In this document: piece by piece, positions 1 to 14,618 of the stretch
Position numbering within the stretch: position 1 is the first letter of the stretch
How the letters are laid out: each line of letters starts with the position of its first letter
Source of the DNA: a virus
DNA length: 64,000 nt
Direction: 5' to 3' (one strand)
IMG/VR virus record: IMGVR_UViG_3300044733_004754
Translations under genes and position numbers: made by a program
Notes under the pieces: model-generated
What the model was told of the DNA's origin: nothing
What the model saw: the letters and a program-made list of their open reading frames with translations, nothing else
Database searches by the model: none

Positions 1-1128
1 ACTGGTAATACATCTCTCTCTAATAGTTTAATCGTAACTGGTAATACGACCTTATCAAATACACTGGCTGTAACTGGTAACGTCGTTCTATCGAACACAT
101 TAGCTGTAACTGGTAATGTGACGTTTTCTAATACGTTAGCGGTTACAGGTAATACCACTTTTTCAAACACTATTAATATTGCCGGTATCACAACCTTACG
201 TAGCGCTGCCAATGTAGTTGGAGCAGCTGCAGCCTTCAATGCATTGACGGGTGTTGCAAACACGACGGAGTTCATCACCACAACGGCAGCACATGGCTTT
301 AGTAATGGTGATCTGGTTCAGTACATTGTATCGACTGGTAATACAGCTGTAACAGGTCTTGCAAATGGAACAAGTTACTACGTGGTTGAGGCGAATTCAA
401 CTGCATTCAAGTTATCCTCGTCGTATGGTGGATCAGTCATAAATCTAACCGCCAGTGTTAGTGAAGTTGGACATACTCTTACACCCCAACGAATTGTTCT
501 ATCAACGAATGGTAATATTGATAGTTCGTTAGGATTAGCTAACGTTGGCTCTTTACGTGTATTAGGGACCGCTGTTGTAAACGGTGCAGTAACGCTAGCT
601 AGTACGTTAGGTGTTACTGGAGCAGCAACATTTTCAAACACAATATCCGTAACAGGTAATGCGACCCTGTCAAACACGCTTGCTGTTACTGGTGCAACGA
701 CACTATCAAATACACTTGTTGTTTCGGGTAACGCAACATTTGACACAGATTTGCTTTTCATTGATGCAGTAAACAACAGAATTGGATTCAAGAACACATC
801 ACCAAGCTCAACCGATCTAATAACTATATCAGGTAATACTGTACTTACTGGTTTAAGTGCAGCTATTCGTTTCCTATCGTCAAACGCAACACATAATGCG
901 TCTATTACAATAGCCGGTAACACAACAAATACACGTACGACGTTTACTACATACGAAGCGAACGCAACAGCAAGTGATGGTGGTTTTATTTTCCAGGCAG
1001 CAAACGGAACAACAACCACATCTGTTCTAGCTTTTAATCAAACTGAGCTAAAGTATAAAACTGGTAATGTTGCACATGCAGGAAATTTTGGGATTTACGA
1101 TGTAAGCGGTACGCGGCTAGGACCATGA
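1..1128 (+). CDS. Tail fibre-like virion protein, 5'-truncated by the window edge
   Basis: Frame +1 is open from base 1. It has 12-aa repeats (TGNxTLSNTLAV) and an HGFxNGDxVxY...GLxxGTxYYV...FKL module common in T4-like tail proteins. The C-terminus is FGIYDVSGTRLGP. Confidence 0.7.
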   Translation, partial: TGNTSLSNSLIVTGNTTLSNTLAVTGNVVLSNTLAVTGNVTFSNTLAVTGNTTFSNTINIAGITTLRSAANVVGAAAAFNALTGVANTTEFITTTAAHGFSNGDLVQYIVSTGNTAVTGLANGTSYYVVEANSTAFKLSSSYGGSVINLTASVSEVGHTLTPQRIVLSTNGNIDSSLGLANVGSLRVLGTAVVNGAVTLASTLGVTGAATFSNTISVTGNATLSNTLAVTGATTLSNTLVVSGNATFDTDLLFIDAVNNRIGFKNTSPSSTDLITISGNTVLTGLSAAIRFLSSNATHNASITIAGNTTNTRTTFTTYEANATASDGGFIFQAANGTTTTSVLAFNQTELKYKTGNVAHAGNFGIYDVSGTRLGP

Positions 1129-1129
1129 A

Positions 1130-4100
1130 ATGGCAAGACCACTTAGAGCAAGATATGTTACAGCAAGTACAAGTGACGGTGTTCAGGAGATGTCGGATAG
1201 CGACATCAATGACCTTGTTATTCCTAGGATAACCAACTTATTTTACGCTGCATCAAATACATCTGGCTACGGTAACAAACTCGAACTAAGAACTACACCA
1301 CCAACTTGGAATTATGTTACTGGTGGGACTGTTCTTGATGTGTTTCCAACAGCTTTACCGCCCATCGGGACACATCCAGTAACTTCTTCGTCAACAACAT
1401 ACACGTTGTACCAAAATCTTGACACTGCATTGACAACAAACTTTGATCTTATAACCAAACCTGTTAAAACAGAGGCAAGTGGTGGTGTTCAAAAGATTCA
1501 ACAGTTTTCAAACAATGAAATCAGAGATGATATTCATAGTAAAGTTATTGCTGAAATATCTGTTGGGGCACAAGGAGCTTACTGGCTTGGAACTTCACCA
1601 CCAGGAACAGGTACGTGGATTGTTGTATCCTCAATAAACGATACTTTTGTTAACTCGACAAGCAATAGCACGCAAACAACCACATATAATTTGTATCAGC
1701 GCTCTACGAATAGTGGGTATGGTACAAAGAGGCCTTTAAAAGGTACAGCGAACGCTCTTACAGAGATGTCCGATGCTGAAATTGACACAATGACAGCGGC
1801 TATACGTGATTGTATTGCGGCTGGTATTGGTAGATATCAAATATCGACTACATCACCAACGCCTGGTACTTGGGTAGCTCGTGGTTCTTTCACAGATACA
1901 CAGAATGGTATAGAGGATCAATCATATTCCGGTAGTTACTTGGGTACTTTTACAGGTGCGTTCAGTGGCATTTATAATCAAGCATTCACAGGAGCTTATC
2001 AGGGACAGTTTAATCGGGCATTTACAGGTAACTTTATTGATACTTCTAAATTTACTGGTGCATTTGCAGGTGTGTATCAGCAAAATTTTACAGGTATCTA
2101 TTCACGTATTTTTACTCGTGATACAAACACCTCGTTTACGGGTGTTTATCAGAACACATATACAGGTAATTACACAGGTTTATTTGCGGGTGCATACTCA
2201 CAGGTATTCTCCGGTGGATATTTGGGAAGTTATCAAGGCTCTACTTTTACTGGCGGCTTCAACCAGACTTTTGCTGGTACGTATGTGGGAACATTTACAG
2301 GACCATATTCAGGAAATTTCCAGGGCGTAACATATTCAGGCGGATTCAATCAAAATTTTACTGGCGTATATGTAGGGGCGTTTTCAAGACCATATGCTGG
2401 GAACTTCCAAGGTATAACATATTCGGGTGGATATAATCAGACTTTTGCCGGTACGTATGTGGGAACATTCACGGGACCATATTCTGGTTCTTATCAGGGT
2501 ACAATATATCCTGGTGGGTATAATCAGACGTTTGCTGGAACATACAATCAAACGTTTACAGCTCAATACTCAGGGGATTTCCAGGGCGTAACATATTCAG
2601 GCGGTTACAATCAGACTTTCATAGGTGTATACGCAGGATCATTTTCAAGACCATATGCTGGGAATTTTCAAGGTATAACATATTCAGGTAGCTACAATCA
2701 AACCTTTGCCGGTACGTATAATCAAAGTTTTACCGGTGGATTTGTAAATAATTATGCCGGGACCTACTCACAGGCGTTCAGTGCCACGTACGCTGGTGGA
2801 TATGTTGGGGACTTTTCAAGAGCATATACAGGTTCATATCAGAACACATATTCAGGGGCATATGCAAATACGTGGTCTCGAATATTTTCAAGAGCGTGGA
2901 CGGGATCCTATACTGCTGCATATACGGGCGATTATACTGGTGCATATACGAAGGCCTTTGCGCGACTTTTCACAGGAACATATACAGGCGCTTGGATTGG
3001 TAACTACACACGTGGCTTTGTAGGCCTATATGGTTCAACATTCTCAAGAGGCTTCTCCTCCTTTTTCGTGGCCGCGTACACTTCAACGTATGCAGGAACT
3101 TATACAGGTAACTACACACGAGCTTTCACACCATCGTTTCAAGGATCGTATGCACTTCCTTCTGTAGGCTCCTACGATGGGGATTACATAGCAGGTGGAT
3201 TTACTGGGCCTTTCAACATCACGTATTATACAGGTACATATCAGGGCACATATAACAGCTTTTTCACGGGTACGTATGAAGGTGCTTTCTCACGTATATT
3301 TGCCGGTAGTTATGCTGGTACATACCAAGACCCCTATACAATAACATCATTTACGGGGCCATTTGCTGGTACAGGTTATTTTACAGGATCGTACGTTGGC
3401 AATTACCAAGGTAATTTTGGCGCTAGTTATCAAACGACATTCCAGGGATTTTATTCGGGTTTATATACGCAGGCCTTTTTGAGAGCGTGGACGAACGTAT
3501 TTGTATCAAGCTGGACATCACTGTATGCTGGTACATACTCAAGAGCATTTACAGGTGAATATCTCCAAAACTACATTGGATCGTATGAAGGAACATTCAG
3601 TAGAGAGTTCTCAGCCCCATATCAGGGATCATATGAGAATAGTTGGTCAAGAATATTTACTGGTGATTGGACGGGGGGTTTTAGTACTAATTACACTGGT
3701 GGGTATGTTAATTTTTGGACAGGGTCTTACACGAGTACATATTCCAGGGTTTTTTCGGGAGCTTATACTGGTGTAATTACATACACGGGTGGGTTTGTTG
3801 GGTTATATGCAAATACGTGGGCAGGCAGTTACACAGGACAATTTACTGGTGGCTATACTAGGGCGTTCACGGGTGACTATACGGCTACTTGGTCAGGATC
3901 CTATACCGGTGCGTACTCACAAAACTTTACCGGTTCGTATACAGGGACCTTTACTGGTGGATATACGGCTACGTGGACCGGTACCTACTCAAGAGTATTC
4001 ACAGGACAGTTTACAGGCGGATATACCGCGGTATTTACTGGTGCTTATACATCAACCTGGACAGGTTCATATGTAGGTTCATACTCACAAAACTTTTCTG

Positions 4101-4678
4101 GTAACTATGTAGGAACATTTACGGGTGCGTATACATCCACTTGGACAGGTTCTTACACCGGATCGTATTCACAAAACTTTACTGGTATATACACAGGCAC
4201 GTTCACAGGGGCATACACGGCTACGTGGACGGGTGTATATTCTGGTGCGTATTCACGAAATTTTACAGGCGCATATACGGGTACATTCAGCGGCAACTAC
4301 ACAGCTACCTTTGCTGGGACGTACACGGGCGGTTATACACGAGCATTTTCTGGTACATACGCTGGTAACTACACGGGCGGGTTTATTGGTCAGTGGACAG
4401 GAGTATACAGCCGTATATTCACTGGTTTATATACCGGCGCGTTCACAGGCGTTTTTATTGGTAACTTTACAGGTAGTTATGTTGGGACATATTCACGTAT
4501 ATTTACGGGTGCATATACTGGTTTGTTCACTGGCTCATATTCTGGAGCATATACGGGTGCTTTCAGTGGTAACTATGCTAATAATTTTACACGATTATTT
4601 ACAGGGGCATACTCGGGTCTAACCGTCACCGGTACAACGACGACGACTACATATACATTATGGGTTAGAACAGCTTGA
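1130..4678 (+). CDS. Giant Gly/aromatic tetrapeptide-repeat protein A (putative hairpin filament, 1182 aa)
   Basis: Three N-terminal RPL...QEMSDxxI modules, then about 900 aa of [YFW]-x-G-x repeats, ending YTLWVRTA. Paralogous to the next gene. Confidence 0.8.
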   Translation: MARPLRARYVTASTSDGVQEMSDSDINDLVIPRITNLFYAASNTSGYGNKLELRTTPPTWNYVTGGTVLDVFPTALPPIGTHPVTSSSTTYTLYQNLDTALTTNFDLITKPVKTEASGGVQKIQQFSNNEIRDDIHSKVIAEISVGAQGAYWLGTSPPGTGTWIVVSSINDTFVNSTSNSTQTTTYNLYQRSTNSGYGTKRPLKGTANALTEMSDAEIDTMTAAIRDCIAAGIGRYQISTTSPTPGTWVARGSFTDTQNGIEDQSYSGSYLGTFTGAFSGIYNQAFTGAYQGQFNRAFTGNFIDTSKFTGAFAGVYQQNFTGIYSRIFTRDTNTSFTGVYQNTYTGNYTGLFAGAYSQVFSGGYLGSYQGSTFTGGFNQTFAGTYVGTFTGPYSGNFQGVTYSGGFNQNFTGVYVGAFSRPYAGNFQGITYSGGYNQTFAGTYVGTFTGPYSGSYQGTIYPGGYNQTFAGTYNQTFTAQYSGDFQGVTYSGGYNQTFIGVYAGSFSRPYAGNFQGITYSGSYNQTFAGTYNQSFTGGFVNNYAGTYSQAFSATYAGGYVGDFSRAYTGSYQNTYSGAYANTWSRIFSRAWTGSYTAAYTGDYTGAYTKAFARLFTGTYTGAWIGNYTRGFVGLYGSTFSRGFSSFFVAAYTSTYAGTYTGNYTRAFTPSFQGSYALPSVGSYDGDYIAGGFTGPFNITYYTGTYQGTYNSFFTGTYEGAFSRIFAGSYAGTYQDPYTITSFTGPFAGTGYFTGSYVGNYQGNFGASYQTTFQGFYSGLYTQAFLRAWTNVFVSSWTSLYAGTYSRAFTGEYLQNYIGSYEGTFSREFSAPYQGSYENSWSRIFTGDWTGGFSTNYTGGYVNFWTGSYTSTYSRVFSGAYTGVITYTGGFVGLYANTWAGSYTGQFTGGYTRAFTGDYTATWSGSYTGAYSQNFTGSYTGTFTGGYTATWTGTYSRVFTGQFTGGYTAVFTGAYTSTWTGSYVGSYSQNFSGNYVGTFTGAYTSTWTGSYTGSYSQNFTGIYTGTFTGAYTATWTGVYSGAYSRNFTGAYTGTFSGNYTATFAGTYTGGYTRAFSGTYAGNYTGGFIGQWTGVYSRIFTGLYTGAFTGVFIGNFTGSYVGTYSRIFTGAYTGLFTGSYSGAYTGAFSGNYANNFTRLFTGAYSGLTVTGTTTTTTYTLWVRTA
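2246..2680 (+). repeat. 5 x 87-bp (29-aa) tandem repeat, outgoing arm of protein A
   Basis: Units like YSGGFNQNFTGVYVGAFSRPYAGNFQGIT start at 2246, 2333, 2420, 2507 and 2594. Confidence 0.8.
3878..4297 (+). repeat. 5 x 84-bp (28-aa) tandem repeat, returning arm of protein A
   Basis: Units like YTSTWTGSYTGSYSQNFTGIYTGTFTGA start at 3878, 3962, 4046, 4130 and 4214. Confidence 0.8.
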
Positions 4679-4684
4679 GAAAAA

Positions 4685-7600
4685 ATGCCACTTCGTCCGT
4701 TATACTATAATACATCGTTATCCGGATTACAGGAGATGTCCAATACGGACATCGATGGATATATTTCAAATGTAATAGGTTCTGATTTTGCTTCGACAGA
4801 AGATATTGGATCTCTCATCGTGCAGGATCCAGGTGATCCGGTTCCTGCAAATTCTACCTCCATTGGTACATGGGTTGATACACGCTACGATCAACAAATA
4901 GGTGACCATCCTGTTTCAGAAGCGAATCTTGTTTATTCAAACACAACCATTTATCAAAGATTGGGTGGTGGACCATTAACGGACCCTTCAATGGTACGAC
5001 CTATTTGCTGGAATGATACGCTTGATGGCGTACAGCAAATGGCGAATACGGATATTGACACAACCATTATTGCGAAGGCCGTTTCTTATATTGTCAATGG
5101 TGGTGTCGGTTCATATGTCCTGCAGCCGTCTGCACCAGTAACTGGTACGTGGGTTGTGAGAGGGCGATTGCAGAATACTGAACGTCCATACTTTGCCAAT
5201 GAAACATTTCTCTGGCAAAAAACGTCTGAAAGTCCAAGCGGCTCTATAAAGCCTTTGAAATGGAGTACTAATGCTTTACGTGAGATGTCAAATAACGACA
5301 TCAAAACCTTGACACATAGAGCAAGAAATTACATCGCCAATACAGGTATAGGCACCTATCAATTATCCACAACCACCCCGTCATCAGGCGGAACGTGGGT
5401 TGAGGCGGGTACGGGATTCAATGATACCCGTCAAGAAATAAGACCTCAAACTTATAATGCTCAAGTGTATACAGCAACTTTTTCTGGTGTATATACACGG
5501 GCTTTTGTTGGCAAGTATCAAGGTAGTTTTACTGGTTTGTATGGGATACCATACACACGTGAATTCACAGGTACATTCGCAGATACGTTTACCGGGGCTT
5601 TCAATCAGCAATTCACCGGAGCTTTTTCTAGCGGATATGCAACAACGTACACGGGTACGTTTAATCAGCAGTTCACTGGACAATTCACTGGCGCTTATAC
5701 TGGTGGTTATACAGGAACATTTACCGGTGCTTACACGGGCGGATATACAGGTGCATTCACTGGTGTATATTCGGCGCCTTATGTGGGTAGCTTCACTGGT
5801 GTATATGTAGGGACGTTTAATCAGCAGTTTACTGGCGCGTTCAGTGGTGTTTATCTAGGGACATATCAACAAAATTTCACTGGTGATTATGTTGGTGGCT
5901 TTACAGGTGCATTCAGCGGTGCTTATGCTCAAGCATTTACGGGTGCATATAGTTCAATCTTTACAGCAGCATATAGCGGTTCGTTTACAGGCCAGTTTTC
6001 GGGTTTATACACAGGCGCTTTCACGGGTGTATATGTAGGAAGTTACGTGGGGAAATTCACAGGCGCATATACGGCTATCTATAGTAGATTGTTTACAGGG
6101 GACTACACAGGTATTTATACTGGTGCATATAGTCAGAACTTCACCGGTGCCTTTACTGGTCAATTCAATCAAGTGTTTACAGGTACGTTCGCTGGTGGTT
6201 ATGCAGGAACGTTTAACCAAGTATTTACGGGCACATTTGCAGGTACTTACAGTAGCCTGTTCTCTGCAATATACACAGGCAACTACACTGGTATATACAG
6301 CCAAGCGTTTACAGGTGCATTCACGGGTATTTTTAATCAGGCTTTCACAGGTAACTTTGTTGGTAATTATGTTGGTAACTATCAGCAAACATTTACGGGA
6401 GCTTTTGCAGGAACATACAGCAGTTTATTCACGGGAAGCTACACAGGTAACTACACAGGATTATATAACCAAGTATTTACAGGAACGTTTGCTGGAACAT
6501 ATAGCCAAGTATTTTCGGGTAGCTATACCGGTAATTACACGGGATTATATAACCAAGTTTTTACAGGTACTTTTGCGGGAACATATAGTAGATTATTCAC
6601 AGGAAGCTATACAGGCAATTACACAGGCATATACAATCAAATATTCACAGGTACCTTCGCAGGCACTTACAGTAGATTATTCACGGGAAGCTATACAGGT
6701 AATTACACTGGCATATACAATCAAGTATTTACAGGTGCGTTTGTAGGAAATTATGCCGGGTCGTTTACTGGTTCGTTTGCTGGTGGATACACAGGTGCTT
6801 TTTCCGGTTCATACACAGGCGCTTACACAGGAATTTATGCAGGTTCATATGTAGGAAATTACCAGGGAAACTTTACTGGTTCATTTGCAGGAACATATAG
6901 TAGATTATTTATAGGTTCGTATTCGGGTGGGTACACACGTGCATTCACAGGAGCTTACACAGGAATTTATTCGGGCGGGTACGTAGGCTCCTTCACGGGT
7001 TTGTACTCCGGTGGGTATGTAGGTTCTTTCACAGGTATTTACTCAGGCGGATACACGAGAGCTTTCTCGGGATCATACACTGGATCATATACTGGAACAT
7101 ACGCCGGAACGTACACAGGTTTGTATTCAGGTGGGTATGTCGGATCGTTTACGGGCATATACTCAGGCGGATACACGAGGGCTTTCTCGGGATCATACAC
7201 TGGATCATATACTGGAACATACGCCGGAACGTATACAGGCATATATGCTGGTGGATATGTGGGGTATTTTACGGGCATATACTCAGGCGGATACACGAGA
7301 GCTTTCTCGGGATCATACACTGGATCATATACTGGAACATACGTAGGAACGTATACAGGCATATATGCTGGTGGGTATGTGGGGTATTTTACTGGAATAT
7401 ACTCTGGTGGGTATACAAGAGCTTTCTCAGGATCATATACTGGATCATATACTGGAACATACGCCGGAACGTATACGGGTTTGTATTCAGGTGGTTATGT
7501 CGGATACTTTACAGGCATATATTCAGGTGGTTATGTTGGATACTTTACAGGAATATATGGTGGCACGTACAGTAGGTTATTCACAGGTGCCTACGCGGGT

Positions 7601-10600
7601 GGATATATTGGGTACTTCACAGGAATATATGGCGGTACGTATAGTAGATTATTCACAGGCGCCTACGCGGGTGGGTATGTTGGTTACTTTACAGGAATAT
7701 ATGGTGGTACATATAGTAGATTATTTACAGGTACATACTCTGGAAGTTATCAAGGCAATTTCACGGGGCTCTATTCAGGTACATATAGTAGATTATTTAC
7801 TGGCAGCTATACAGGATTATATTCCGGAAACTTTCAGGGTAACTTTACAGGTGCTTTTGCTGGTACGTATAGTCGATTGTTTACGGGTTTATATACAGGA
7901 TCATACTCTCGTGGGTTCACGCGGGTCTTCATCGGGACTTATCAAAGAGGGTTCATAGGGTCATATGCAGGTAGCTTCAATAATACATTCACACCAACAT
8001 TTGCTGGAGCTTACGCTCGGGCCTTTATTGGAGTTTATGCAGGATCGTACCAAAACCCATTCACTGGAATATATTTCACTGGTTATTACACTGGTTTTTA
8101 CATTAATTTTTTTACAGGAACTTATCAGGGAGCGTTCACGCGTTTGTTCACAGGGGCATATACAGGCGTTTATCAAGATCCTTACGTCATTTTAACTTTT
8201 ACGGGGCCATTTGCTGGTCCAGGTTTTTTCGCGGGTACCTATGGGGGTTCTTATGTAGGTGTGTTTGGCGCCTCATATAGTAGGCTATTTACAGGCTTTT
8301 ATTCAGGATCATATACTGGTGATTTTACGGGAGCGTTTGCTCGGGTGTTCACAGCAACATGGACAGGGTCCTATGCAGGATCTTATCAAGGCAACTTTAC
8401 AGGAAGTTTTGCGGGTACGTATAGTAGATTGTTTACTGGGCAGTATTCTGGCGCTTATGCAGGATCCTATCAGGGTAACTTCACAGGTACTTTTGCTGGT
8501 ACGTATAGTAGATTATTTACGGGTACGTACTCGGGCAACTACCAAGGCAACTTCTCCGGGATATATGCAGGATCATATGCACAGACGTTTACTGGAATAT
8601 ACTCCGGCAATTACCAAGGCAACTTTTCCGGAACATATGCGGGTGCATATGCACAGACTTTCACAGGAATATATTCCGGCAATTATCAAGGCAACTTCTC
8701 AGGAACATATGCAGGAGCATATGCACAAACATTTACAGGTGCATATGCAGGGGCATATGCTCAAACATTTACAGGTACTTACGCAGGCGGATATACAGGC
8801 TATTATTCTGGCGCCTATGCTGGTACATATTCGGGTGCATTCAATCAAACATTTACAGGTGCATATGCAGGGGCATATGCTCAAACATTTACAGGTACTT
8901 ACGCAGGCGGATATACAGGCTATTATTCTGGGGCATATGCTGGAACGTATTCGGGCTCATTTAACCAGACATTTACGGGTGCATTTGCAGGGGCATATGC
9001 TCAAACATTTACAGGTACTTACGCAGGCGGATATACAGGCTATTATTCTGGCGCTTATGCTGGTACATACTCAGGAGCATTTAACCAGACATTTACAGGT
9101 GCATTCGCCGGTGTATATCAACAAACCTTTACGGGTACGTATTCAGGTGGATATATTGGATACTATTCTGGCGCTTATGCTGGTACATACTCAGGAGCAT
9201 TTAACCAGACATTTACAGGTGCATTCGCTGGTGTATATCAACAAACATTTACCGGTTCTTACTCGGGTACATATCAGCAAACGTTTACAGGTGGGTATGC
9301 AGGGACATATTCAGGGTCTTATAATCAGACATTTACAGGCGCTTTTTTAGGTAGTTATGAAAGTTCTTTCACTGGATTTTATTCAGGTGCCTATAGTAGA
9401 TTATTCACTGGTAGCTACACAGGTGCGTATACTGGAATATATGTGGGTTCCTATGTTGGTACATTTAATCAAACATTTACGGGTAGTTTTGCAGGCACAT
9501 ATTCAAGAGTATTTTCGGGATTATATTCCGGTGGCTACACGGGTGCATTTACTGGAATATATGCCGGTGCTTATGTTGGCAACTTCCAAGGCAATTTCAC
9601 AGGTAACTACTCTGGTGGCTACACAGGTGCATTTACTGGAATATATGCTGGTGCTTATGTTGGCAACTTCCAAGGCAACTTCACAGGAAATTATTCAGGT
9701 GGATATACAGGAACATTTTCGGGAATATATGCTGGTAGTTATGTAGGAGGGTATCAGGGCAACTTCACAGGAAATTATTCAGGCGGATATACCGGCACAT
9801 TTACTGGTGTATATGCAGGCGCTTATGTTGGAAGCTATCAAGGGAATTTCACTGGAAGTTTTATTGGTGGCTACACACGTGTGTTCTCGGGCACATATTC
9901 CGGTGTATATACGGGTGTTTACACAGGTCAATTTACAGGGATATACTCAACGTTATTTACAGGTGCATTCAGTGGGATATACGCAGGCGGATATGGTGGG
10001 AGTTTTCTAGGAAACTTCTCAGGGCTGTATTCGGGCGGATACACAGGAGCGTTTACAGGTATTTACACAGGTATCTACACAGGTGGGTATACTGGCACCT
10101 TTACTGGAGCATACTCAACACAGTTTACAGGTACATTTACAGGTGGATATGCAGGCACGTATGCCGGTGCCTACCAAGGCAACTTCACAGGCGTGTTCCA
10201 AGGTACGTACCAACAATCATTTACAGGTAATTACACCGGCATATACAGCCAAGCATTTAGTGGTACATATAACCAAGCATTCACAAGAAACTTTACTTTT
10301 GATTATACCGGTACGTTTTCGGGACCATATGTAGGATTTTTCACTGGAAGTTATTCACAAGTCTTCAGTAGATTTTTTACAGGATCATATACGGGTCAGT
10401 TCACAGGCGCTTATTCGGGCATATACAGTCAAGCCTTTACAGGTGCGTTCTCTGGCAATTATACAGGTATCTACAGTCAAGCATTCACAGGTGCTTACAC
10501 GGGTATATTCAATCAAACATTCACTGGCGATTTCGTAGGAAAATTTAATCAAACCTTCAGCGGTATTTTCATTGGTTCCTATAATCAACAATTCACTGGT

Positions 10601-11113
10601 GCTTTTAGTGGTGGGTATACGGCGGTGTATACTGGCGCTTACAGTCAAGCCTTTACTGGTACATTCAGCGGCATTTATACTGGTCAGTTTTCTGGTGCGT
10701 ACACGGGAGCATTTGGTTCATTGTTTACAGGAGTATACAGCCGTATATTCACTGGATCTTATTCGAGCGCATTCACAGGCCAGTTTAACCAATCGCCTGT
10801 TTACACGAGCGTGTATTCAAGACCATATGCTGGCGTGTATGGTCAGACGTTTAGTAGTACGACATATCCAGGTGCGTTTTATGCACAAGCGTTTACAGGA
10901 GAGTACACAGGATCGTATACAGGAACCTCTATCTTTGGGTTCACAAGTAGTTTTTCTAAAGCATTTACTAGTTTGTTAGGTTCTTTTTCATCGTTATTTA
11001 CAGGACTATATACTAACATAACAGGGCAATATCTAGCAGCTTGGTCGGGGTTGACAATAATGTCAACGCCGGAAACAATTCAAACACTTAAACTTTGGGT
11101 ACGAACAGCATGA
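4685..11113 (+). CDS. Giant Gly/aromatic tetrapeptide-repeat protein B (putative hairpin filament, 2142 aa)
   Basis: Same architecture as protein A: three RPL...QEMSNxDI modules, about 1860 aa of [YF]-x-G-x repeats, the central YQDPY...FTGPFAG motif and a C-terminal LKLWVRTA. Confidence 0.8.
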   Translation: MPLRPLYYNTSLSGLQEMSNTDIDGYISNVIGSDFASTEDIGSLIVQDPGDPVPANSTSIGTWVDTRYDQQIGDHPVSEANLVYSNTTIYQRLGGGPLTDPSMVRPICWNDTLDGVQQMANTDIDTTIIAKAVSYIVNGGVGSYVLQPSAPVTGTWVVRGRLQNTERPYFANETFLWQKTSESPSGSIKPLKWSTNALREMSNNDIKTLTHRARNYIANTGIGTYQLSTTTPSSGGTWVEAGTGFNDTRQEIRPQTYNAQVYTATFSGVYTRAFVGKYQGSFTGLYGIPYTREFTGTFADTFTGAFNQQFTGAFSSGYATTYTGTFNQQFTGQFTGAYTGGYTGTFTGAYTGGYTGAFTGVYSAPYVGSFTGVYVGTFNQQFTGAFSGVYLGTYQQNFTGDYVGGFTGAFSGAYAQAFTGAYSSIFTAAYSGSFTGQFSGLYTGAFTGVYVGSYVGKFTGAYTAIYSRLFTGDYTGIYTGAYSQNFTGAFTGQFNQVFTGTFAGGYAGTFNQVFTGTFAGTYSSLFSAIYTGNYTGIYSQAFTGAFTGIFNQAFTGNFVGNYVGNYQQTFTGAFAGTYSSLFTGSYTGNYTGLYNQVFTGTFAGTYSQVFSGSYTGNYTGLYNQVFTGTFAGTYSRLFTGSYTGNYTGIYNQIFTGTFAGTYSRLFTGSYTGNYTGIYNQVFTGAFVGNYAGSFTGSFAGGYTGAFSGSYTGAYTGIYAGSYVGNYQGNFTGSFAGTYSRLFIGSYSGGYTRAFTGAYTGIYSGGYVGSFTGLYSGGYVGSFTGIYSGGYTRAFSGSYTGSYTGTYAGTYTGLYSGGYVGSFTGIYSGGYTRAFSGSYTGSYTGTYAGTYTGIYAGGYVGYFTGIYSGGYTRAFSGSYTGSYTGTYVGTYTGIYAGGYVGYFTGIYSGGYTRAFSGSYTGSYTGTYAGTYTGLYSGGYVGYFTGIYSGGYVGYFTGIYGGTYSRLFTGAYAGGYIGYFTGIYGGTYSRLFTGAYAGGYVGYFTGIYGGTYSRLFTGTYSGSYQGNFTGLYSGTYSRLFTGSYTGLYSGNFQGNFTGAFAGTYSRLFTGLYTGSYSRGFTRVFIGTYQRGFIGSYAGSFNNTFTPTFAGAYARAFIGVYAGSYQNPFTGIYFTGYYTGFYINFFTGTYQGAFTRLFTGAYTGVYQDPYVILTFTGPFAGPGFFAGTYGGSYVGVFGASYSRLFTGFYSGSYTGDFTGAFARVFTATWTGSYAGSYQGNFTGSFAGTYSRLFTGQYSGAYAGSYQGNFTGTFAGTYSRLFTGTYSGNYQGNFSGIYAGSYAQTFTGIYSGNYQGNFSGTYAGAYAQTFTGIYSGNYQGNFSGTYAGAYAQTFTGAYAGAYAQTFTGTYAGGYTGYYSGAYAGTYSGAFNQTFTGAYAGAYAQTFTGTYAGGYTGYYSGAYAGTYSGSFNQTFTGAFAGAYAQTFTGTYAGGYTGYYSGAYAGTYSGAFNQTFTGAFAGVYQQTFTGTYSGGYIGYYSGAYAGTYSGAFNQTFTGAFAGVYQQTFTGSYSGTYQQTFTGGYAGTYSGSYNQTFTGAFLGSYESSFTGFYSGAYSRLFTGSYTGAYTGIYVGSYVGTFNQTFTGSFAGTYSRVFSGLYSGGYTGAFTGIYAGAYVGNFQGNFTGNYSGGYTGAFTGIYAGAYVGNFQGNFTGNYSGGYTGTFSGIYAGSYVGGYQGNFTGNYSGGYTGTFTGVYAGAYVGSYQGNFTGSFIGGYTRVFSGTYSGVYTGVYTGQFTGIYSTLFTGAFSGIYAGGYGGSFLGNFSGLYSGGYTGAFTGIYTGIYTGGYTGTFTGAYSTQFTGTFTGGYAGTYAGAYQGNFTGVFQGTYQQSFTGNYTGIYSQAFSGTYNQAFTRNFTFDYTGTFSGPYVGFFTGSYSQVFSRFFTGSYTGQFTGAYSGIYSQAFTGAFSGNYTGIYSQAFTGAYTGIFNQTFTGDFVGKFNQTFSGIFIGSYNQQFTGAFSGGYTAVYTGAYSQAFTGTFSGIYTGQFSGAYTGAFGSLFTGVYSRIFTGSYSSAFTGQFNQSPVYTSVYSRPYAGVYGQTFSSTTYPGAFYAQAFTGEYTGSYTGTSIFGFTSSFSKAFTSLLGSFSSLFTGLYTNITGQYLAAWSGLTIMSTPETIQTLKLWVRTA
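6416..6751 (+). repeat. 4 x 84-bp (28-aa) tandem repeat, left arm of protein B
   Basis: YSRLFTGSYTGNYTGIYNQVFTGTFAGT-type units start at 6416, 6500, 6584 and 6668. Confidence 0.85.
7052..7531 (+). repeat. 4 x 120-bp (40-aa) tandem repeat, left arm of protein B
   Basis: Near-identical DNA recurs at 7081, 7201, 7321 and 7441 (tggatcatatactggaacatacg). Confidence 0.9.
7532..7747 (+). repeat. 3 x 72-bp (24-aa) tandem repeat, left arm of protein B
   Basis: YVGYFTGIYGGTYSRLFTGAYAGG units start at 7532, 7604 and 7676. Confidence 0.85.
8528..8743 (+). repeat. 3 x 72-bp (24-aa) tandem repeat, right arm of protein B
   Basis: YSGNYQGNFSGTYAGAYAQTFTGI units start at 8528, 8600 and 8672. Confidence 0.85.
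8744..9223 (+). repeat. 4 x 120-bp (40-aa) tandem repeat, right arm of protein B
   Basis: Near-identical DNA recurs at 8761, 8881 and 9001 (tcaaacatttacaggtacttacgcaggcgg), with a more diverged copy at 9121. Confidence 0.9.
9524..9859 (+). repeat. 4 x 84-bp (28-aa) tandem repeat, right arm of protein B
   Basis: YSGGYTGAFTGIYAGAYVGNFQGNFTGN units start at 9524, 9608, 9692 and 9776. Confidence 0.85.
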
Positions 11114-11553
11114 AACGAACTATTGTAAATCCGCATTGGGTAAACAATGCAAGAACAGTTATCTCTGCTGAATTTCATTATGATGACGGTAGGGTAGCGC
11201 AGGCAACGATTTCCGAGTCGGATGTTACTAATCCAGACCTTGTTGAAATTAAATCAAAATTTACGGACGAGCAACTTGAAGCTAACACGCGTAAAAAAAT
11301 TCAAGAGATCAATGCCGAGCGTGAGCGTAAGCATCAGGAAGAATTGGCTAAGGCTCAACGAAAACAACAAGAAGAATTGTTTGCAGCTAAGCTAAGAATT
11401 TTTGAGATCGACGCCATTAAAGAATCAGATAATCGAGTGCTCAAAGCAAAGATAAGAAAGTCAAAGAGTGATGTTGAGGCTATGGCGTGGGCCTCGGCTT
11501 TGTTGCTTGATATAGCCCAAAAGGAAATAGCAACAAATTCAACGGCGGAGTAA
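11110..11553 (+). CDS. Hypothetical protein, possible fibre assembly chaperone
   Basis: The ATG at 11110 overlaps the stop of protein B (ATGA coupling). It has a beta-like N-terminus and a charged helical C-terminal half. Confidence 0.55.
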   Translation: MKRTIVNPHWVNNARTVISAEFHYDDGRVAQATISESDVTNPDLVEIKSKFTDEQLEANTRKKIQEINAERERKHQEELAKAQRKQQEELFAAKLRIFEIDAIKESDNRVLKAKIRKSKSDVEAMAWASALLLDIAQKEIATNSTAE

Positions 11554-11555
11554 AA

Positions 11556-12290
11556 ATGAATATTCGTAATGGTTTTTTAATTGTTGCATCACAACTCAAA
11601 GAGTATCTAGATTCGGCAAATTATCTGGCGAGTAGTATAAAAGACTACTATCCCGAAGCACACATCACTCTTTTTGTAACTCCAAAGCTAGAGCAATATG
11701 CTGACCGCAGTGCCTTTGATCTAGTTATATCTGAGGATGTTCCGAACCATGTGCGTACAAAGTTGTACGCTCTCTCCAGAACACCATACACTGAGCTTAC
11801 TGTTTATGTTGATGCAGATATGGAGTGCATGCACTCTGATGTCTCGAATATTTGGGATGAAATGCCTGAGGATTGTGACCTCCTGATTACAAAAATACGT
11901 CCCTATAACGGTAAAGAGGATCGTTGGCCGGGAGGTGCGACGATACCTCAAGGCCGTATGATATATCATGGTGGTTTTTTTATGTACAGATCAAACCCAC
12001 AAACACTTGAGTTTATGCGTAGGTGGTGGGAGGATTATAAATTACAAAGAAGTGAACCATGGCCTTATCCTGAAGAAGAGTGTAGGAAGTCCTTTGCTCA
12101 ATGGGATCAATTTACTTTTTGGAAACTTTTAGCTGTTGACAAGCTAGATGTTAAGGTAGGTGTTTTTGATGATGATGCAAGATGGAATTTTGTAAATGGT
12201 TATTATCCAAAAGAAGCCAAAAAAGAGATCGTTTTTTGGCACCACACTATTCCTTCTAAGCACGAAAATATAGGGATCAAAGCTAAATGA
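11556..12290 (+). CDS. GT-A fold glycosyltransferase (GT8-like / nucleotide-diphospho-sugar transferase)
   Basis: YVDADM DxD motif, followed by HGGFF and WDQFTFW motifs typical of GT8/GT77-like enzymes. Confidence 0.7.
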   Translation: MNIRNGFLIVASQLKEYLDSANYLASSIKDYYPEAHITLFVTPKLEQYADRSAFDLVISEDVPNHVRTKLYALSRTPYTELTVYVDADMECMHSDVSNIWDEMPEDCDLLITKIRPYNGKEDRWPGGATIPQGRMIYHGGFFMYRSNPQTLEFMRRWWEDYKLQRSEPWPYPEEECRKSFAQWDQFTFWKLLAVDKLDVKVGVFDDDARWNFVNGYYPKEAKKEIVFWHHTIPSKHENIGIKAK

Positions 12291-12919
12291 AAGAAATTCA
12301 AATAAACAATAAAGAACTTAAACAAATTTTAAATGATTGGTTAGAGGTTCTTTTGAGAGCAGATCGTTCGAAATATCCCTATCAAGCAGGCGTGGGTAAA
12401 ACTGGATTAGTGACTCCAGAGTATGCATGTAGTATGGAATACTTGCAACACATGCAAAGTAAAAAAGTAGACGGATTCCCAGAAACAACACATGGTGTTG
12501 ATCTAATGAGGTTTCGACCACCACACCAATCCCTTGCCGACGCTTTGGTAAAGCTAGACTACGATCTACTCAATTGGTCTGGATCGCGCAACAATGCGGT
12601 TAAGATGCTCTATCCTAAAGGCGGGTATATGGGCTGGCATCATAATGCAAACGCGCCCGGTTATAACATTCTTTTATCATGGTCTGAAAAAGGTACAGGT
12701 TTCTTTCGTTACCAAGATCCAATAACAAAAGAGATTGTCACGATGCAGGACACGCCTGGGTGGACGTGTAAAGTTGGATATTATGGACCATGGCATGAGC
12801 CGGATCGAATCTACTGGCACTGCGCAAGCGCACATGAAGAAGAGCGGGTAACGCTAGGGTATATCATTCCTCATGAAGGGATGTGGAATAATATGTGCGA
12901 TGATATTCAGTCAGCGTAA
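12287..12919 (+). CDS. Cupin / 2OG-Fe(II) oxygenase-like protein
   Basis: YPKGGYMGWHHN...YWHCA...RVTLGY fits a double-stranded beta-helix metal-binding pattern. Confidence 0.55.
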   Translation: MKEIQINNKELKQILNDWLEVLLRADRSKYPYQAGVGKTGLVTPEYACSMEYLQHMQSKKVDGFPETTHGVDLMRFRPPHQSLADALVKLDYDLLNWSGSRNNAVKMLYPKGGYMGWHHNANAPGYNILLSWSEKGTGFFRYQDPITKEIVTMQDTPGWTCKVGYYGPWHEPDRIYWHCASAHEEERVTLGYIIPHEGMWNNMCDDIQSA

Positions 12920-13647
12920 TATTTTCTAAAGAAGTGTTCGTAGTGTTTGGGTAGGGTTGGACCGTTAAAAAGTATCACAGGTATTTTTTTAACGGTCTCA
13001 ACAAACTTACTTTCTCTATATGCTTTTTGGACTGGGTCGTACAACGCATTCTCTTCAATGTCTACGCCGTAAAGAAAAGAATAAAATTTTCTTGTTGGAA
13101 AATATCCAATATTCACGTTGATATTTTCTTTCTCATAAAACAAAAAAGAGTCCATACCCCATCTATATTTGTTCATAAATGATTCAGGATCTCTAGATAC
13201 AAACTCCCAAATTTTTTGTGGTTTGTTTTCTTGCCACGTCATGCAACTACTGTTAAACGGATGGTGAAATATTGGGAAACCATAGTCCCATTTTGGTCTC
13301 CACTCTGCTTCAATTAGTGTTAGCTCATTATGATTAAAAGCAGTGATGTCGTTAATGTCGTGTTTAATGACAACATCGAGATCAAAAAAAATACGATCAC
13401 CAGTTGGTAGTTGATCGTTTACTTGCTCACTGAACAGAAACATCTTATTGTAGACGACGATATCAAACTCGTTTTCAACATATTCAATGATATTGATACC
13501 ATGTGAAATCCCTTCGGGATTGTCCGTGTAGCAGAACATCTTGAATGGTCTTGCTATGTTCTTGCGGCACATCCTAAATAAGTTATTGACCATAGAGCTA
13601 GGGTATTTCGTACCAACTTTAACACATAAAATAGTGAGCATTTCCAT
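12907..13647 (-). CDS. Glycosyltransferase (GT-A fold)
   Basis: CVKVGTKY N-terminus, FCYTD, FFDLDVVI (DxD) and NSSCMTW motifs. Confidence 0.7.
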   Translation of the reverse strand: MEMLTILCVKVGTKYPSSMVNNLFRMCRKNIARPFKMFCYTDNPEGISHGINIIEYVENEFDIVVYNKMFLFSEQVNDQLPTGDRIFFDLDVVIKHDINDITAFNHNELTLIEAEWRPKWDYGFPIFHHPFNSSCMTWQENKPQKIWEFVSRDPESFMNKYRWGMDSFLFYEKENINVNIGYFPTRKFYSFLYGVDIEENALYDPVQKAYRESKFVETVKKIPVILFNGPTLPKHYEHFFRKYYAD

Positions 13648-14248
13648 GGATATTCAATATCTAACAAAAATTTCAGATGTTTTAAGGAAGGGTGTGTCTA
13701 CAGGGTTAAATGTGTTTGATTTCGCTAATTCATTCAGTCAAACACAACTCGAATCAAAAAAATGGTTGGTTGAAGAATTAAGTAAAGTTTCATTCAAGAA
13801 ACAACCCACCATACTTATATTGGGTGGATGGTACGGAAGCTATCTTGTTCCACTGCTACGGCAGCATGTAAAACCTGATCACATATATTTCAATGATATC
13901 GACAGATCGTGTTTAGACGTTGCAAAAGAGTTACATACCAGATACAAAGAAGATAGAAGTATAAGTTTCCACCATTTTGATGCTACAGCAATGTTTCATC
14001 ATTTTGATGCTGATATCGTTATAAACACTTCATGTGAGCACATGGAGCAGTACGAGGAGATGTTGAAGGAGGGCCAAGATACGTTATTCGTACTGCAGTC
14101 GTGTGATGAGGAAAGTGACCCGGGTCACGTAAACGTTTCCAAATCAACACAAGATTTTTTACACAAAGTTGGGTTAACGCGCGTATACATGCAGTCGAGA
14201 AAGAACCTTGGACACAAAAACAGGTTTTTGATCATAGGTAAACAATAG
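13646..14248 (+). CDS. Class I SAM-dependent methyltransferase
   Basis: ILILGGWYG motif I, FNDID and DIVINTSCEH. Start moved to the ATG at 13646. Confidence 0.7.
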   Translation: MDIQYLTKISDVLRKGVSTGLNVFDFANSFSQTQLESKKWLVEELSKVSFKKQPTILILGGWYGSYLVPLLRQHVKPDHIYFNDIDRSCLDVAKELHTRYKEDRSISFHHFDATAMFHHFDADIVINTSCEHMEQYEEMLKEGQDTLFVLQSCDEESDPGHVNVSKSTQDFLHKVGLTRVYMQSRKNLGHKNRFLIIGKQ

Positions 14249-14260
14249 CATAAGTGTTTT

Positions 14261-14268
14261 TATAAATA
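14261..14268 (+). promoter_or_regulatory. T4-type late promoter TATAAATA
   Basis: Exact consensus, intergenic, upstream of structural genes. gp55 is encoded in the window. Confidence 0.85.
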
Positions 14269-14291
14269 CACAAAAACAGAGAATTCTACTC

Positions 14292-14618
14292 ATGGCCATA
14301 AAAGCAAATTTGATAATTGATCAAGGGACAGATTATCAAACAGATATAACACTTACGGACCTTGATGATAATGTTGTTAACTTGTCCGGGTATACAGCTA
14401 ATGCCCAGATAAGAAAGTCATACACTTCGTCAAACGCTGTCAGTTTTTCTGTAACGCTTGGTGAAAATACTGGTATTGTGACGTTATCGTTAACCGATAC
14501 ACAAACAGCCAATATCACACCTGGAAGGTATTTGTATGATGTTCTCTTAACATCAAACAATATAACATCGAGAATTGTAGAAGGTATAGTTACCGTAACG
14601 CCAGGAGTAACGAGATGA
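14292..14618 (+). CDS. Small Ig-like virion structural protein
   Basis: NLIIDQGTD...LSGYTANAQIRKSY...GRYLYDV...RIVEG, a beta-sandwich family common in T4-like phages. Confidence 0.65.
   Translation: MAIKANLIIDQGTDYQTDITLTDLDDNVVNLSGYTANAQIRKSYTSSNAVSFSVTLGENTGIVTLSLTDTQTANITPGRYLYDVLLTSNNITSRIVEGIVTVTPGVTR

What the first reader, a model, noticed from the sequence alone, without database searches (positions are those of the whole stretch)
1130..11113. The whole repeat tract is an insertion in one loop of a three-module base domain
Seen: both proteins start with three copies of a module roughly RPL...QEMSxxDI-helix-G.Y.L....P..GTW...G...DT-(loop)-TTYxLYQR. Modules 1 and 2 close locally (TTYTLYQN and TTYNLYQR in A; TTIYQR and TFLWQK in B). 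Module 3 breaks after DT, and its missing strand appears at the extreme C-terminus (TTYTLWVRTA in A, TLKLWVRTA in B), 900-1860 residues later. Inference: the N- and C-termini fold together, forcing the repeat tract to go out and come back. The base domain would anchor the filament to the virion.
Basis: partly seen in the sequence, partly recalled or inferred. Interest (0 to 1): 0.85.

Follow-up and report, generated by a model that had tools for sequence, protein, structure and literature searches.

The report
Split-base phage fibre with hairpin shaft
Two giant neighbouring proteins of an uncultured T4-like phage each appear to be one chain that leaves a three-part base, runs out as a four-residue repeat, turns in the middle and returns to supply the base's last strand, an architecture not described for phage fibres.

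Summary

- **The proteins.** A (1130-4678, 1182 aa) and B (4685-11113, 2142 aa) each start with three homologous modules of about 85 aa (profile-profile E 6e-14 to 3e-21).
- **The split module.** Module 3 stops after its DT motif. The last ~20 residues (…LWVRTA) align with the closing strand of modules 1 and 2.
- **Structure predictions.** AlphaFold2 places this C-terminal strand in the base at pLDDT 91-98, in A itself and in a 393-aa homologue. A two-chain test of A 1-285 with A 1138-1182 scored 0.84 against 0.00 for the best control.
- **The family.** It is large (547 representatives), viral, and has no Pfam, PHROG or solved relative. The insert ranges from about 15 aa (a plain hairpin) to over 3000 aa, and the C-terminal motif is nearly always kept.
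- **Out-and-back path.** In B, tandem arrays occur in mirror order with equal period and copy number: 84 bp x4.1, 120 x4.4, 72 x2.9 | 72 x2.9, 120 x4.4, 84 x4.3. In 57 of 109 relatives the main irregularity sits mid-tract.

Not shown: the shaft's 3-D structure (pLDDT 25-45), the oligomeric state, virion attachment and the receptor.

The scan's other first-stage notes on this same DNA raised the mirror order and the central tip.

The parts
1130..4678 (+). Gene A, 1182 aa: three-module base, tetrapeptide tract, C-terminal closing strand
   Evidence: ORF and translation; base profile E=8e-116; AF2
1133..1423 (+). A module 1 (aa 2-98), closed locally by TTYTLYQN
   Evidence: hhalign; AF2 strands E63-73 and E86-95
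1454..1708 (+). A module 2 (aa 109-193), closed locally by TTYNLYQR
   Evidence: hhalign; AF2 strands E163-174 and E181-191
1727..1924 (+). A module 3, N-terminal part (aa 200-265), ending after FTDT in strand b4
   Evidence: hhalign; AF2 E248-266; contacts with the C-terminal strand
1925..4615 (+). A repeat tract (aa 266-1162): aromatic-x-G-x tetrads; 29-aa units on the outward arm, 28-aa units on the return arm
   Evidence: 201 of 224 aromatic spacings equal 4; periods
3185..3454 (+). A irregular centre (aa ~686-775, YQDPY at 732): candidate turn or distal tip, colinear with the centre of B
   Evidence: Phase breaks; A/B local alignment over about 170 aa
4616..4675 (+). A C-terminal strand (aa 1163-1182, GLTV…TYTLWVRTA): strand b5 of module 3
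   Evidence: AF2 pLDDT 91-98; complex prediction contacts; near-invariant G1163, T1165, L1177, R1180
4685..11113 (+). Gene B, 2142 aa: paralogue with the same architecture and a tract of about 1860 aa
   Evidence: ORF and translation; base profile E=6e-111
4688..5467 (+). B base: module 1 (aa 2-94), module 2 (aa 104-181), module 3 N-terminal part (aa 188-261)
   Evidence: Module HMM hits; alignment A1
5468..11044 (+). B repeat tract (aa 262-2120)
   Evidence: 435 of 482 aromatic spacings equal 4; one run of 150 aromatic residues in phase
6404..7732 (+). B outward-arm tandem arrays: 84 bp x4.1 (6404-6749), 120 bp x4.4 (6998-7527), 72 bp x2.9 (7526-7732)
   Evidence: Tandem Repeats Finder; period track
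8072..8239 (+). B irregular centre (aa ~1130-1185; mirror centre at aa 1148; YQDPY at 1163)
8528..9881 (+). B return-arm tandem arrays in mirror order: 72 bp x2.9 (8528-8739), 120 bp x4.4 (8729-9262), 84 bp x4.3 (9524-9881)
   Evidence: Tandem Repeats Finder; mirror test
11045..11110 (+). B C-terminal strand (aa 2121-2142, GLTIM…TLKLWVRTA)
   Evidence: Family-wide C-terminal motif; module-3 HMM matches the last 34 aa

Best explanation
A and B are paralogous fibre-like structural proteins of an uncultured T4-like (Kyanoviridae-related) myovirus.

**Base.** Each has a compact base of three tandem homologous modules, each with the order b-b-a-b-b-b. The base fold may be a pseudo-threefold, beta-prism-like arrangement, but this is uncertain.

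**Shaft.** In module 3 the terminal b4-b5 hairpin is enormously elongated. After b4 (the DT motif) the chain runs outward for about 450 residues in A and about 900 in B as an (aromatic-x-Gly-x)n repeat. It turns at an irregular region near the middle that is conserved between A and B. It then returns alongside the outward arm, and its last ~20 residues form b5, a strand that the split-chain model places next to both b3 and b4 of module 3.

**Consequence.** Both termini lie in the base, and the distal end of the fibre is the middle of the polypeptide.

**Length change.** Because the turn and the base are fixed, the two arms must stay equal in length. The shaft therefore grows by matched tandem duplications in both arms.

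**Shown here (computationally):** module homology; family-wide conservation of the C-terminal strand; predicted closure; natural short-hairpin forms; mirror-matched arrays.

**Inferred:** that the protein is a virion fibre, that the base docks it on the baseplate or tail, and that the mid-chain tip contacts the host.
For: **Module homology and the C-terminal peptide**
- Module homology is significant, and the C-terminal peptide aligns on the closing strand.
- The motif G.TV…LW.RTA ends nearly all complete members of a family of 547 representatives.
- G1163, T1165, L1177 and R1180 are at least 90% conserved.

**Structure predictions**
- AF2 of the 393-aa homologue P0020: base pLDDT above 90. 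Hairpins are E62-72/E84-94 and E161-172/E178-188; in module 3 they are E247-273 and E364-391, with the C-terminus at pLDDT 93-98.
- AF2 of A full length: E248-266 and E1161-1180, with the C-terminus at pLDDT 91-98.
- Complex prediction of A 1-285 with A 1138-1182: ipSAE 0.84 (three runs 0.83-0.85) against 0.00 for the best of 3 controls. That mark was reached by 58 of 80 solved complexes and 2 of 110 mismatched pairs; these counts hold only roughly because my own alignment was used.
- In the same job the runs agree in at least 72% of contacts and the partner's pLDDT is at least 62. Contacts 248-1180, 250-1177 and 254-1175 run antiparallel, and 235-238 touch 1176-1180. No similar complex has been solved. 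The model supports binding; it does not show it.

**Natural short forms**
- Short-insert relatives exist: P0056 (287 aa, about 15-aa insert), P0087 and P0088 (296 aa), P0079 (308 aa).

**Mirror order of repeats**
- B's arrays match in period, copy number and divergence in mirror order.
- With the centre at aa 1148, 433 of 483 comparable positions have the same period, against 222 of 334 for the best direct shift. Only 10 of 200000 random block placements give midpoints as tight.
- A has 29-aa units facing 28-aa units around aa ~712.

**Centre of the tract**
- The largest irregular stretch of the tract lies at relative position 0.4-0.6 in 57 of 109 representatives, with median 0.49.
- A and B share a colinear centre of about 170 aa.

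**Genomic setting**
- The genes lie between baseplate-wedge and neck genes, next to fibre genes and an LtfC-like chaperone.
Against: - No experiment exists, and all the structural evidence comes from prediction.
- AF2 does not fold the shaft: pLDDT is about 40 in the 105-aa tract of P0020 and 25-45 in A. In A's 29-aa-unit zone it draws solenoid-like strands at pLDDT 50-73 rather than a long hairpin.
- The predictors lean on co-variation in the same alignments that show the conservation, so these lines are not fully independent.
- In Phage C48C1 the return arm carries several extra globular stretches and the mirror order is not clean.
- 52 of 109 representatives have their largest irregularity outside the middle fifth of the tract.
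- B's return arm is about 50-80 residues longer than its outward arm.
- Virion location is inferred from synteny only.
Confidence: 0.8

Rival explanations
1. Closure in trans. The C-terminal strand completes module 3 of another copy. This would give an antiparallel, domain-swapped dimer (or chain) in which the whole tract is extended once, with a base at each end, rather than a hairpin within one molecule.
For: An antiparallel dimer would also pair position i with position N-i, so it would also give mirror-matched arrays. The split-chain prediction shows that the strand can dock as a separate chain. It cannot tell cis from trans.
Against: Members with inserts of 15-40 aa can only close in cis as a simple hairpin, and insert length varies widely, from about 15 aa to over 3000 aa. 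Short turn-like G/N/P-rich breaks sit at 0.49-0.52 of the tract in many members. AF2 closes P0020 and A in cis. A fibre with an anchor at both ends has no obvious place on a virion.
Confidence: 0.07
2. The termini do meet in the base, but the tract is not an extended two-stranded ribbon. It is compacted, for example as one or two beta-solenoids or a stacked cross-beta body whose rungs correspond to the 24-56-residue super-repeats. The object would then be tens of nanometres long, not hundreds.
For: All super-repeat periods are multiples of the tetrad except A's 29-aa unit. AF2 draws strands with period 29 in A 370-530 at pLDDT 50-73. The G/Y/S/T/N/Q-rich composition with no charge other than Arg resembles sequences known to stack as cross-beta; that comparison is from my own knowledge.
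Against: Periods differ along one protein (24, 28, 40, 56), which does not suit a single solenoid geometry. The strict four-residue phase holds over as many as 150 units. Matched periods at mirrored positions need coupling between the arms. The confidently predicted part is a straight hairpin that continues about 10 residues into the tract on each arm.
Confidence: 0.2
3. The C-terminal motif is not a structural strand of module 3. It is a separate conserved signal, such as a chaperone or assembly tag, a cleavage site or a docking peptide. Its likeness to the closing strands of modules 1 and 2 would be a coincidence of beta-strand composition.
For: The peptide is short, and its contribution to the profile score is modest at +7 to +11. 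Phage fibres often carry conserved C-terminal chaperone or autoproteolysis elements; this is from my own knowledge.
Against: Module 3 lacks a closing strand of its own in every member, while modules 1 and 2 always have one. Two different predictors place the peptide as the strand next to both b3 and b4 of module 3 with high confidence, and the controls score 0.00. The pLDDT of the base fell from 81-84 to 67-73 when the peptide was replaced by unrelated proteins.
Confidence: 0.04

Closest known systems
Distal needle domain of the phage T4 long tail fibre protein gp37 (from my own knowledge of the published structure)
   Same: A phage fibre segment in which each chain runs out to the tip and comes back. 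The receptor-binding tip is therefore not at a chain end, and the strands are antiparallel.
   Different: gp37 is a parallel homotrimer over most of its length, and only its last ~200 residues fold back. Its needle is held by His-bound iron ions, whereas the tracts of A and B contain no His. No sequence or fold match was found. Here the whole shaft would be the fold-back, and both termini sit in one domain.
SMC/Rad50-type proteins (from my own knowledge)
   Same: The topology is shared. A globular head is made from the N- and C-terminal ends of one chain, a very long antiparallel shaft lies between them, and the apex sits at mid-chain. The two arms must keep equal length.
   Different: Their shaft is an alpha-helical coiled coil and the head is an ATPase. 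Here the shaft is an aromatic-Gly tetrapeptide repeat predicted as beta, and the head is a three-module beta-rich base. The likeness is analogy only.
Beta-prism type domains: the MABP domain (3tow) and the C-terminal domains of MACPF proteins (Mp2Ba1 8b6v, Plu-MACPF 2qp2, perforin-2 P2 6sb1)
   Same: These are the best structural matches of the base model, covering model residues 45-393. They score Z 6.5 (rmsd 3.7, 119 aligned), Z 6.1 (rmsd 4.1, 113), Z 6.0 (rmsd 4.5, 120) and Z 5.3 (rmsd 5.6, 121). All are beta-rich domains; the perforin-2 P2 domain also projects a long beta-hairpin (from my own knowledge).
   Different: These Z values are below what unrelated models typically reach (7-8). 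Sequence identity is 6-12%, and Foldseek finds nothing. The likeness is a hint about the fold, not membership.
Short-period beta repeats of phage and other fibres: the VxGxxxxx octapeptide triple beta-helix of T4 gp5 and gp12, pentapeptide repeats, and collagen-like G-x-y (from my own knowledge)
   Same: Very regular, Gly-containing short repeats build elongated structures.
   Different: The period here is 4, with an aromatic residue at position 1 and Gly at position 3. It is not 3, 5 or 8. There is no Pfam match to any repeat family.
Hypothetical protein WJE88074.1 of Phage C48C1 (OQ984149.1, Kyanoviridae)
   Same: It is the only relative found by three protein queries (A's base, P0088, P0099) against the GenBank phage collection. 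It has the three-module base, a repeat tract and the C-terminal …TYTLYVRVA, and it lies next to fibre and chaperone genes.
   Different: It is 3347 aa long, with Arg-rich repeat variants. A globular stretch of about 240 aa sits at the tract midpoint, and further globular stretches lie in the return arm. It is annotated only as hypothetical.

Membership tests
Unnamed viral family defined here (three-module base + hairpin tract + C-terminal LW.RTA strand) | Three tandem homologous modules at the N-terminus | tested here: met
   A scores E=8e-116 and B E=6e-111 to the base profile. Module-module hhalign gives E 6e-14 to 3e-21. 131 of 166 members have exactly three modules.
Unnamed viral family defined here (three-module base + hairpin tract + C-terminal LW.RTA strand) | Module 3 lacks its own closing strand, and a conserved G.TV…LW.RTA peptide ends the protein | tested here: met
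   Both A and B end in this motif, as do nearly all complete members.
Unnamed viral family defined here (three-module base + hairpin tract + C-terminal LW.RTA strand) | The C-terminal peptide is strand b5 of module 3 | tested here: met
   This is met by prediction only. AF2 gives pLDDT 91-98. Complex prediction gives 0.84 against 0.00 for the best control, a mark reached by 58 of 80 solved complexes and 2 of 110 mismatched pairs (counts rough). The runs agree in at least 72% of contacts and the partner's pLDDT is at least 62.
T4 gp37-type fold-back needle | His-x-His repeats that coordinate iron along the needle | tested here: not met
   There is no His in either tract.
T4 gp37-type fold-back needle | Sequence or fold similarity to gp37 or its relatives | tested here: inconclusive
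   No Pfam or PHROG hit. No significant Foldseek match in PDB or BFVD. The shaft itself could not be modelled.
T4 gp37-type fold-back needle | Homotrimer | not tested
Beta-prism / MABP-like domains | Three-sheet pseudo-threefold beta-prism fold | tested here: inconclusive
   VIA-align gives Z 5.3-6.5, rmsd 3.7-5.6 A and 113-121 residues aligned. This is below the usual background best of Z 7-8. Foldseek finds nothing.
Pentapeptide, collagen-like or octapeptide beta-helix repeats | Repeat period of 5, 3 or 8 with the family's signature residues | tested here: not met
   The period is 4: 201 of 224 aromatic spacings in A and 435 of 482 in B equal 4, and Gly occupies position 3 in 63-76% of tetrads. 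No Pfam repeat family matched.

The most novel reading that the evidence does not exclude
This would be a new class of fibrous protein: a single chain folded into a two-armed beta shaft up to hundreds of nanometres long. It is built from (Tyr/Phe)-x-Gly-x tetrads and rooted in a pseudo-threefold base that is completed only when the chain returns. The receptor-binding tip would lie at mid-chain. The fibre's length would be tuned in evolution by paired tandem duplications that keep the two arms in register. In topology it would be a beta-strand counterpart of the SMC/Rad50 coiled coil, used by a widespread lineage of aquatic T4-like phages.
Probability: 0.35. Interest if true: 0.9.

Novelty: new variant of a known kind. 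Interest (0 to 1): 0.78.

Why it matters
Phage fibres and receptor-binding proteins are generally described as parallel trimers, anchored by the N-terminus and binding the host by the C-terminus. Annotation and host-range engineering rest on that picture.

Here a large viral family (547 cluster representatives) appears to break the rule. It has no Pfam or PHROG family and no solved relative, and only one GenBank phage record carries it. Both termini sit in the anchor, and the distal tip is in the middle of the chain.

If this is right, three things follow:
- It gives a rule for finding the host-contacting part of these proteins: the centre of the tract.
- It explains why tandem arrays occur in mirror-matched pairs.
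- It offers a simple, expressible test system (the 287-393-aa members) for a beta-shaft motif that AlphaFold2 did not model with confidence.

Tried and rejected
- **Family libraries.** Pfam and PHROGs gave nothing for A or B. Pfam also gave nothing for eight other long or odd family members, or for the mid-tract globular stretches of C48C1.
- **GenBank phages.** Megablast of 1-12000 found no match. tblastn of A's base and of P0088 also found nothing. Only P0099 found one record, C48C1.
- **Fold searches.** Foldseek of the P0020 model against PDB and BFVD gave nothing at E<=0.001. VIA-align over PDB representatives gave only weak beta-prism-type hits. The ESM Atlas returned only viral hypothetical proteins.
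- **Shaft modelling.** AF2 failed to give a confident shaft model in both jobs, so no structural mechanism for the tetrad repeat could be tested.
- **Whole genome.** None is held for this window.
- **Literature.** Searches found no paper on such a protein or on Phage C48C1.
- **Mirror order in other members.** Most other long members lack high-identity super-repeats. Only P0012 and P0038 showed paired 12-aa arrays, placed symmetrically. C48C1 was not clean.
- **First alignment for A.** It was too large for the fold tool and was rebuilt with fewer rows.
- **Assembly artefact.** I considered this for the long repeats. The arrays are diverged (60-94% matches), the frames are open over 3.5 and 6.4 kb, and relatives from many samples have the same architecture. 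I therefore rejected it.
Full report
**Setting**

The window is part of an uncultured T4-like myovirus.
- It encodes a large terminase (20546-22219), tail sheath (22299-24413), T4-type portal (25040-26662), scaffold (28729-29754) and a neck protein (18625-19371).
- The portal is about 50% identical to those of Synechococcus myoviruses such as S-CREM1 and S-RIM8.
- Genes A (1130-4678, 1182 aa) and B (4685-11113, 2142 aa) lie six bases apart on the + strand.
- In related metagenomic contigs the homologous gene follows baseplate-wedge genes (gp6-like and gp8-like) and a DUF4815 giant protein.
- It is followed by the same run of small genes as here: about 140, 230 and 210 aa, a minus-strand gene of about 248 aa, and an LtfC-like gene.
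- One related contig also has two tandem paralogues, of 627 and 1070 aa.

**The observation**

All the quoted motifs are present. I aligned 21 family members, cut the alignment into modules and compared the profiles.
- Module 1 v 2 gives E=6e-14, module 1 v 3 gives E=4.6e-13 and module 2 v 3 gives E=3.3e-21.
- Modules 1 and 2 end with a strand of the type (T/S)Y.L(Y/W)Q(K/R).
- Module 3 stops after its DT motif.
- When the protein's last 20 residues are appended to module 3, they align on that closing strand. The scores rise from 97.0 to 107.8 and from 62.4 to 69.6.

**The family**

- A profile of five base domains found 547 cluster representatives at E<=1e-3, of which 154 are at E<=1e-30. Lengths run from 184 to 2661 aa.
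- Nearly every complete member ends in G.TV, then 8-12 residues, then LW.RTA.
- 131 of 166 members have exactly three modules. The others are fragments, have a module 1 that the profiles do not detect, or are cases where the C-terminal piece was matched separately.
P0056 (287 aa) has only about 15 residues between the DT region and the C-terminal motif. P0087 and P0088 (296 aa), P0079 (308 aa) and P0067 (313 aa) have 25-45 residues.
- At the other extreme is the only GenBank relative found, Phage C48C1 (Kyanoviridae), annotated as hypothetical. It is 3347 aa long and ends …TYTLYVRVA.
- Neither A nor B matches any Pfam or PHROG family. ESM Atlas neighbours are viral hypothetical proteins.

**Does the C-terminus close module 3?**

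*AF2 of the 393-aa homologue P0020* (102-row alignment) gave mean pLDDT 82, with the base above 90.
- Each module reads b-b-a-b-b-b.
- The last hairpins are E62-72/E84-94 in module 1 and E161-172/E178-188 in module 2.
- In module 3 the corresponding strands are E247-273 and the C-terminal E364-391, at pLDDT 93-98.

*AF2 of A itself* (110-row alignment) gave the same picture. The base is at pLDDT 92-98, with E248-266 and E1161-1180 at pLDDT 91-98.

*A split-chain test* of A 1-285 with A 1138-1182 gave the following.
- ipSAE was 0.84 (runs 0.83-0.85) against 0.00 for the best of three controls.
- That mark was reached by 58 of 80 solved complexes and 2 of 110 mismatched pairs. The counts are rough because my own alignment was used.
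- The runs agree in at least 72% of contacts, and the partner's pLDDT is at least 62.
- The confident contacts run antiparallel (248-1180, 250-1177, 254-1175). Residues 235-238 also touch 1176-1180, so the peptide lies next to both b4 and b3. The peptide also touches parts of modules 1 and 2.
- With an unrelated partner the pLDDT of the base fell from 81-84 to 67-73.
- No similar complex is solved, so the pass is not from memory of a structure. It remains a prediction that leans on the family alignment.

*A refinement of the finding.* The tract is not a foreign insert in a loop. It is an extension of the b4-b5 hairpin, because the predicted strands run about 10 residues into the repeats on both arms.

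**Does the tract go out and come back?**

Three lines of evidence do not depend on structure prediction.

*(i) Mirror order in B.* The local repeat period changes along B in the order 56, 28, 40, 24, then an irregular centre, then (28) 24, 40, 28, 56 residues.
- At the DNA level the arrays are 84 bp x4.1, 120 bp x4.4 and 72 bp x2.9, then 72 bp x2.9, 120 bp x4.4 and 84 bp x4.3.
- Their divergence is similar: 80, 87 and 87% matches on the outward arm against 85, 89 and 79% on the return arm.
- The facing units differ in sequence, so this is not a simple large duplication.
- Reflecting about residue 1148, 433 of 483 comparable positions share the same period. The best direct shift gives 222 of 334.
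- The midpoints of the four block pairs fall at 1145-1153. Only 10 of 200000 random placements were as tight.
- In A, 29-residue units (about 320-560) face 28-residue units (about 880-1100), with a midpoint of about 712.

*(ii) A shared centre.* The mirror centres coincide with an irregular region that A and B share colinearly over about 170 residues. YQDPY lies at A 732 and B 1163.

*(iii) The family as a whole.* Across 109 representatives, the longest stretch that breaks the four-residue rhythm lies at relative position 0.4-0.6 of the tract in 57 cases, against about 22 expected if it were placed uniformly.
- The median position is 0.49.
- Many of these stretches are short G/N/P-rich turn-like breaks at 0.49-0.52.
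- Some members carry 95-156-aa non-repeat stretches near the middle.
- C48C1 has a globular stretch of about 240 aa starting at the tract midpoint. Its return arm holds further globular stretches, so its mirror order is not clean.

**The shaft itself**

The tract is a tetrapeptide repeat.
- Position 1 is Tyr or Phe, position 2 is Thr, Ser or Ala, position 3 is Gly (63-76%) or Arg/Gln, and position 4 is variable.
- The spacing between successive aromatic residues is 4 in 201 of 224 cases in A and 435 of 482 in B. One run in B stays in phase for 150 aromatic residues.
- There is no His, Cys or Met, and almost no charge apart from Arg.
- In a beta strand this pattern puts Tyr/Phe and Gly on one face and the Thr/Ser-rich positions on the other. 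That is my inference.
- AF2 gives the shaft pLDDT 25-45, so its 3-D form is open.

The form could be a flat or twisted two-stranded ribbon, an oligomer of such ribbons, or a more compact stacked body.
- As a fully extended ribbon the arms would measure about 140-155 nm in A and about 290-310 nm in B, at 0.33 nm per residue. This is an upper bound.
- A solenoid-like packing would be roughly ten times shorter. In A's 29-residue-unit zone AF2 draws strands with period 29 at pLDDT 50-73.

**Rival explanations**

- *Closure in trans.* An antiparallel domain-swapped dimer would also explain the mirror order. It does not fit the members with 15-40-aa inserts, the turn-like centres or the cis predictions.
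- *A signal peptide.* The C-terminal motif could be a signal unrelated to module 3. This is unlikely given the missing strand in every member and the predictions.
- *Base fold.* The fold of the base is unresolved. The best structural neighbours are beta-prism-type domains: Z 6.5 (rmsd 3.7, 119 aligned) for 8b6v, Z 6.1 for the MABP domain 3tow, Z 6.0 for 2qp2 and Z 5.3 for the perforin-2 P2 domain. These values are below the usual background.

**What is not shown**

None of the following has been shown:
- that the proteins are in the virion;
- where the base docks;
- the oligomeric state;
- what the centre binds.

**Verdict**

The inferred topology is well supported for a purely computational study. 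The family is large, uncharacterised and architecturally unlike described phage fibres.

Other first-stage notes of this scan on the same DNA had raised the mirror order, the 29/28-residue facing units and the central tip. I tested those points here.

Noticed in passing
window 11095-14618: A conserved block of small genes follows the fibre genes here and in related contigs. It holds a 152-aa protein (weak SBD_N hit), a 244-aa protein with a weak nucleotide-diphospho-sugar transferase hit (E=2e-4), a 210-aa protein and a minus-strand 246-aa protein with no hits, a 235-aa protein with weak methyltransferase hits (E about 1e-3), and a 108-aa LtfC-like beta-sandwich (E=4e-5). These could be fibre chaperones or enzymes that modify the Thr/Ser-rich face of the shaft. 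All hits are below Pfam's cut-offs.
   Followed up: partly
window 1-1128: The upstream gene is cut by the window start. It has bactofilin-like beta-helix repeats (E=2e-5, below the cut-off) and matches PHROG structural-protein families, so it is probably another fibre or spike-like protein.
   Followed up: partly
homologues P0012, P0014-P0018, P0043, P0068 (e.g. L004:2116-3999): A subgroup carries an extra domain of about 85-100 aa inserted in module 1, between its first strand (RPLRAKY) and the GVQEMS helix. This is a second insertion-tolerant site in the base.
   Followed up: no
L007:1-10044 (Phage C48C1, OQ984149.1 141011-151054): This 3347-aa family member has Arg-rich repeat variants (YSRTRVSTYDGT-like). 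It carries a globular stretch of about 240 aa at 1807-2050, partly duplicated just after, and at least four further non-repeat stretches in the second half. None matches Pfam.
   Followed up: partly
window 2260-2719 versus 3770-4430: In A the outward units are 29 aa (87 bp x5.3, 65% matches), one residue longer than the facing 28-aa units. If the arms pair, each outward unit would carry a one-residue bulge.
   Followed up: no
window 10790-11044 (B aa ~2035-2120): The last ~85 residues of B's tract, just before the closing strand, lose the tetrad rhythm (…SPVYTSVYSRPY…LLGSFSSLF…). They make the return arm longer than the outward arm, which may reflect an extra element near the base.
   Followed up: no
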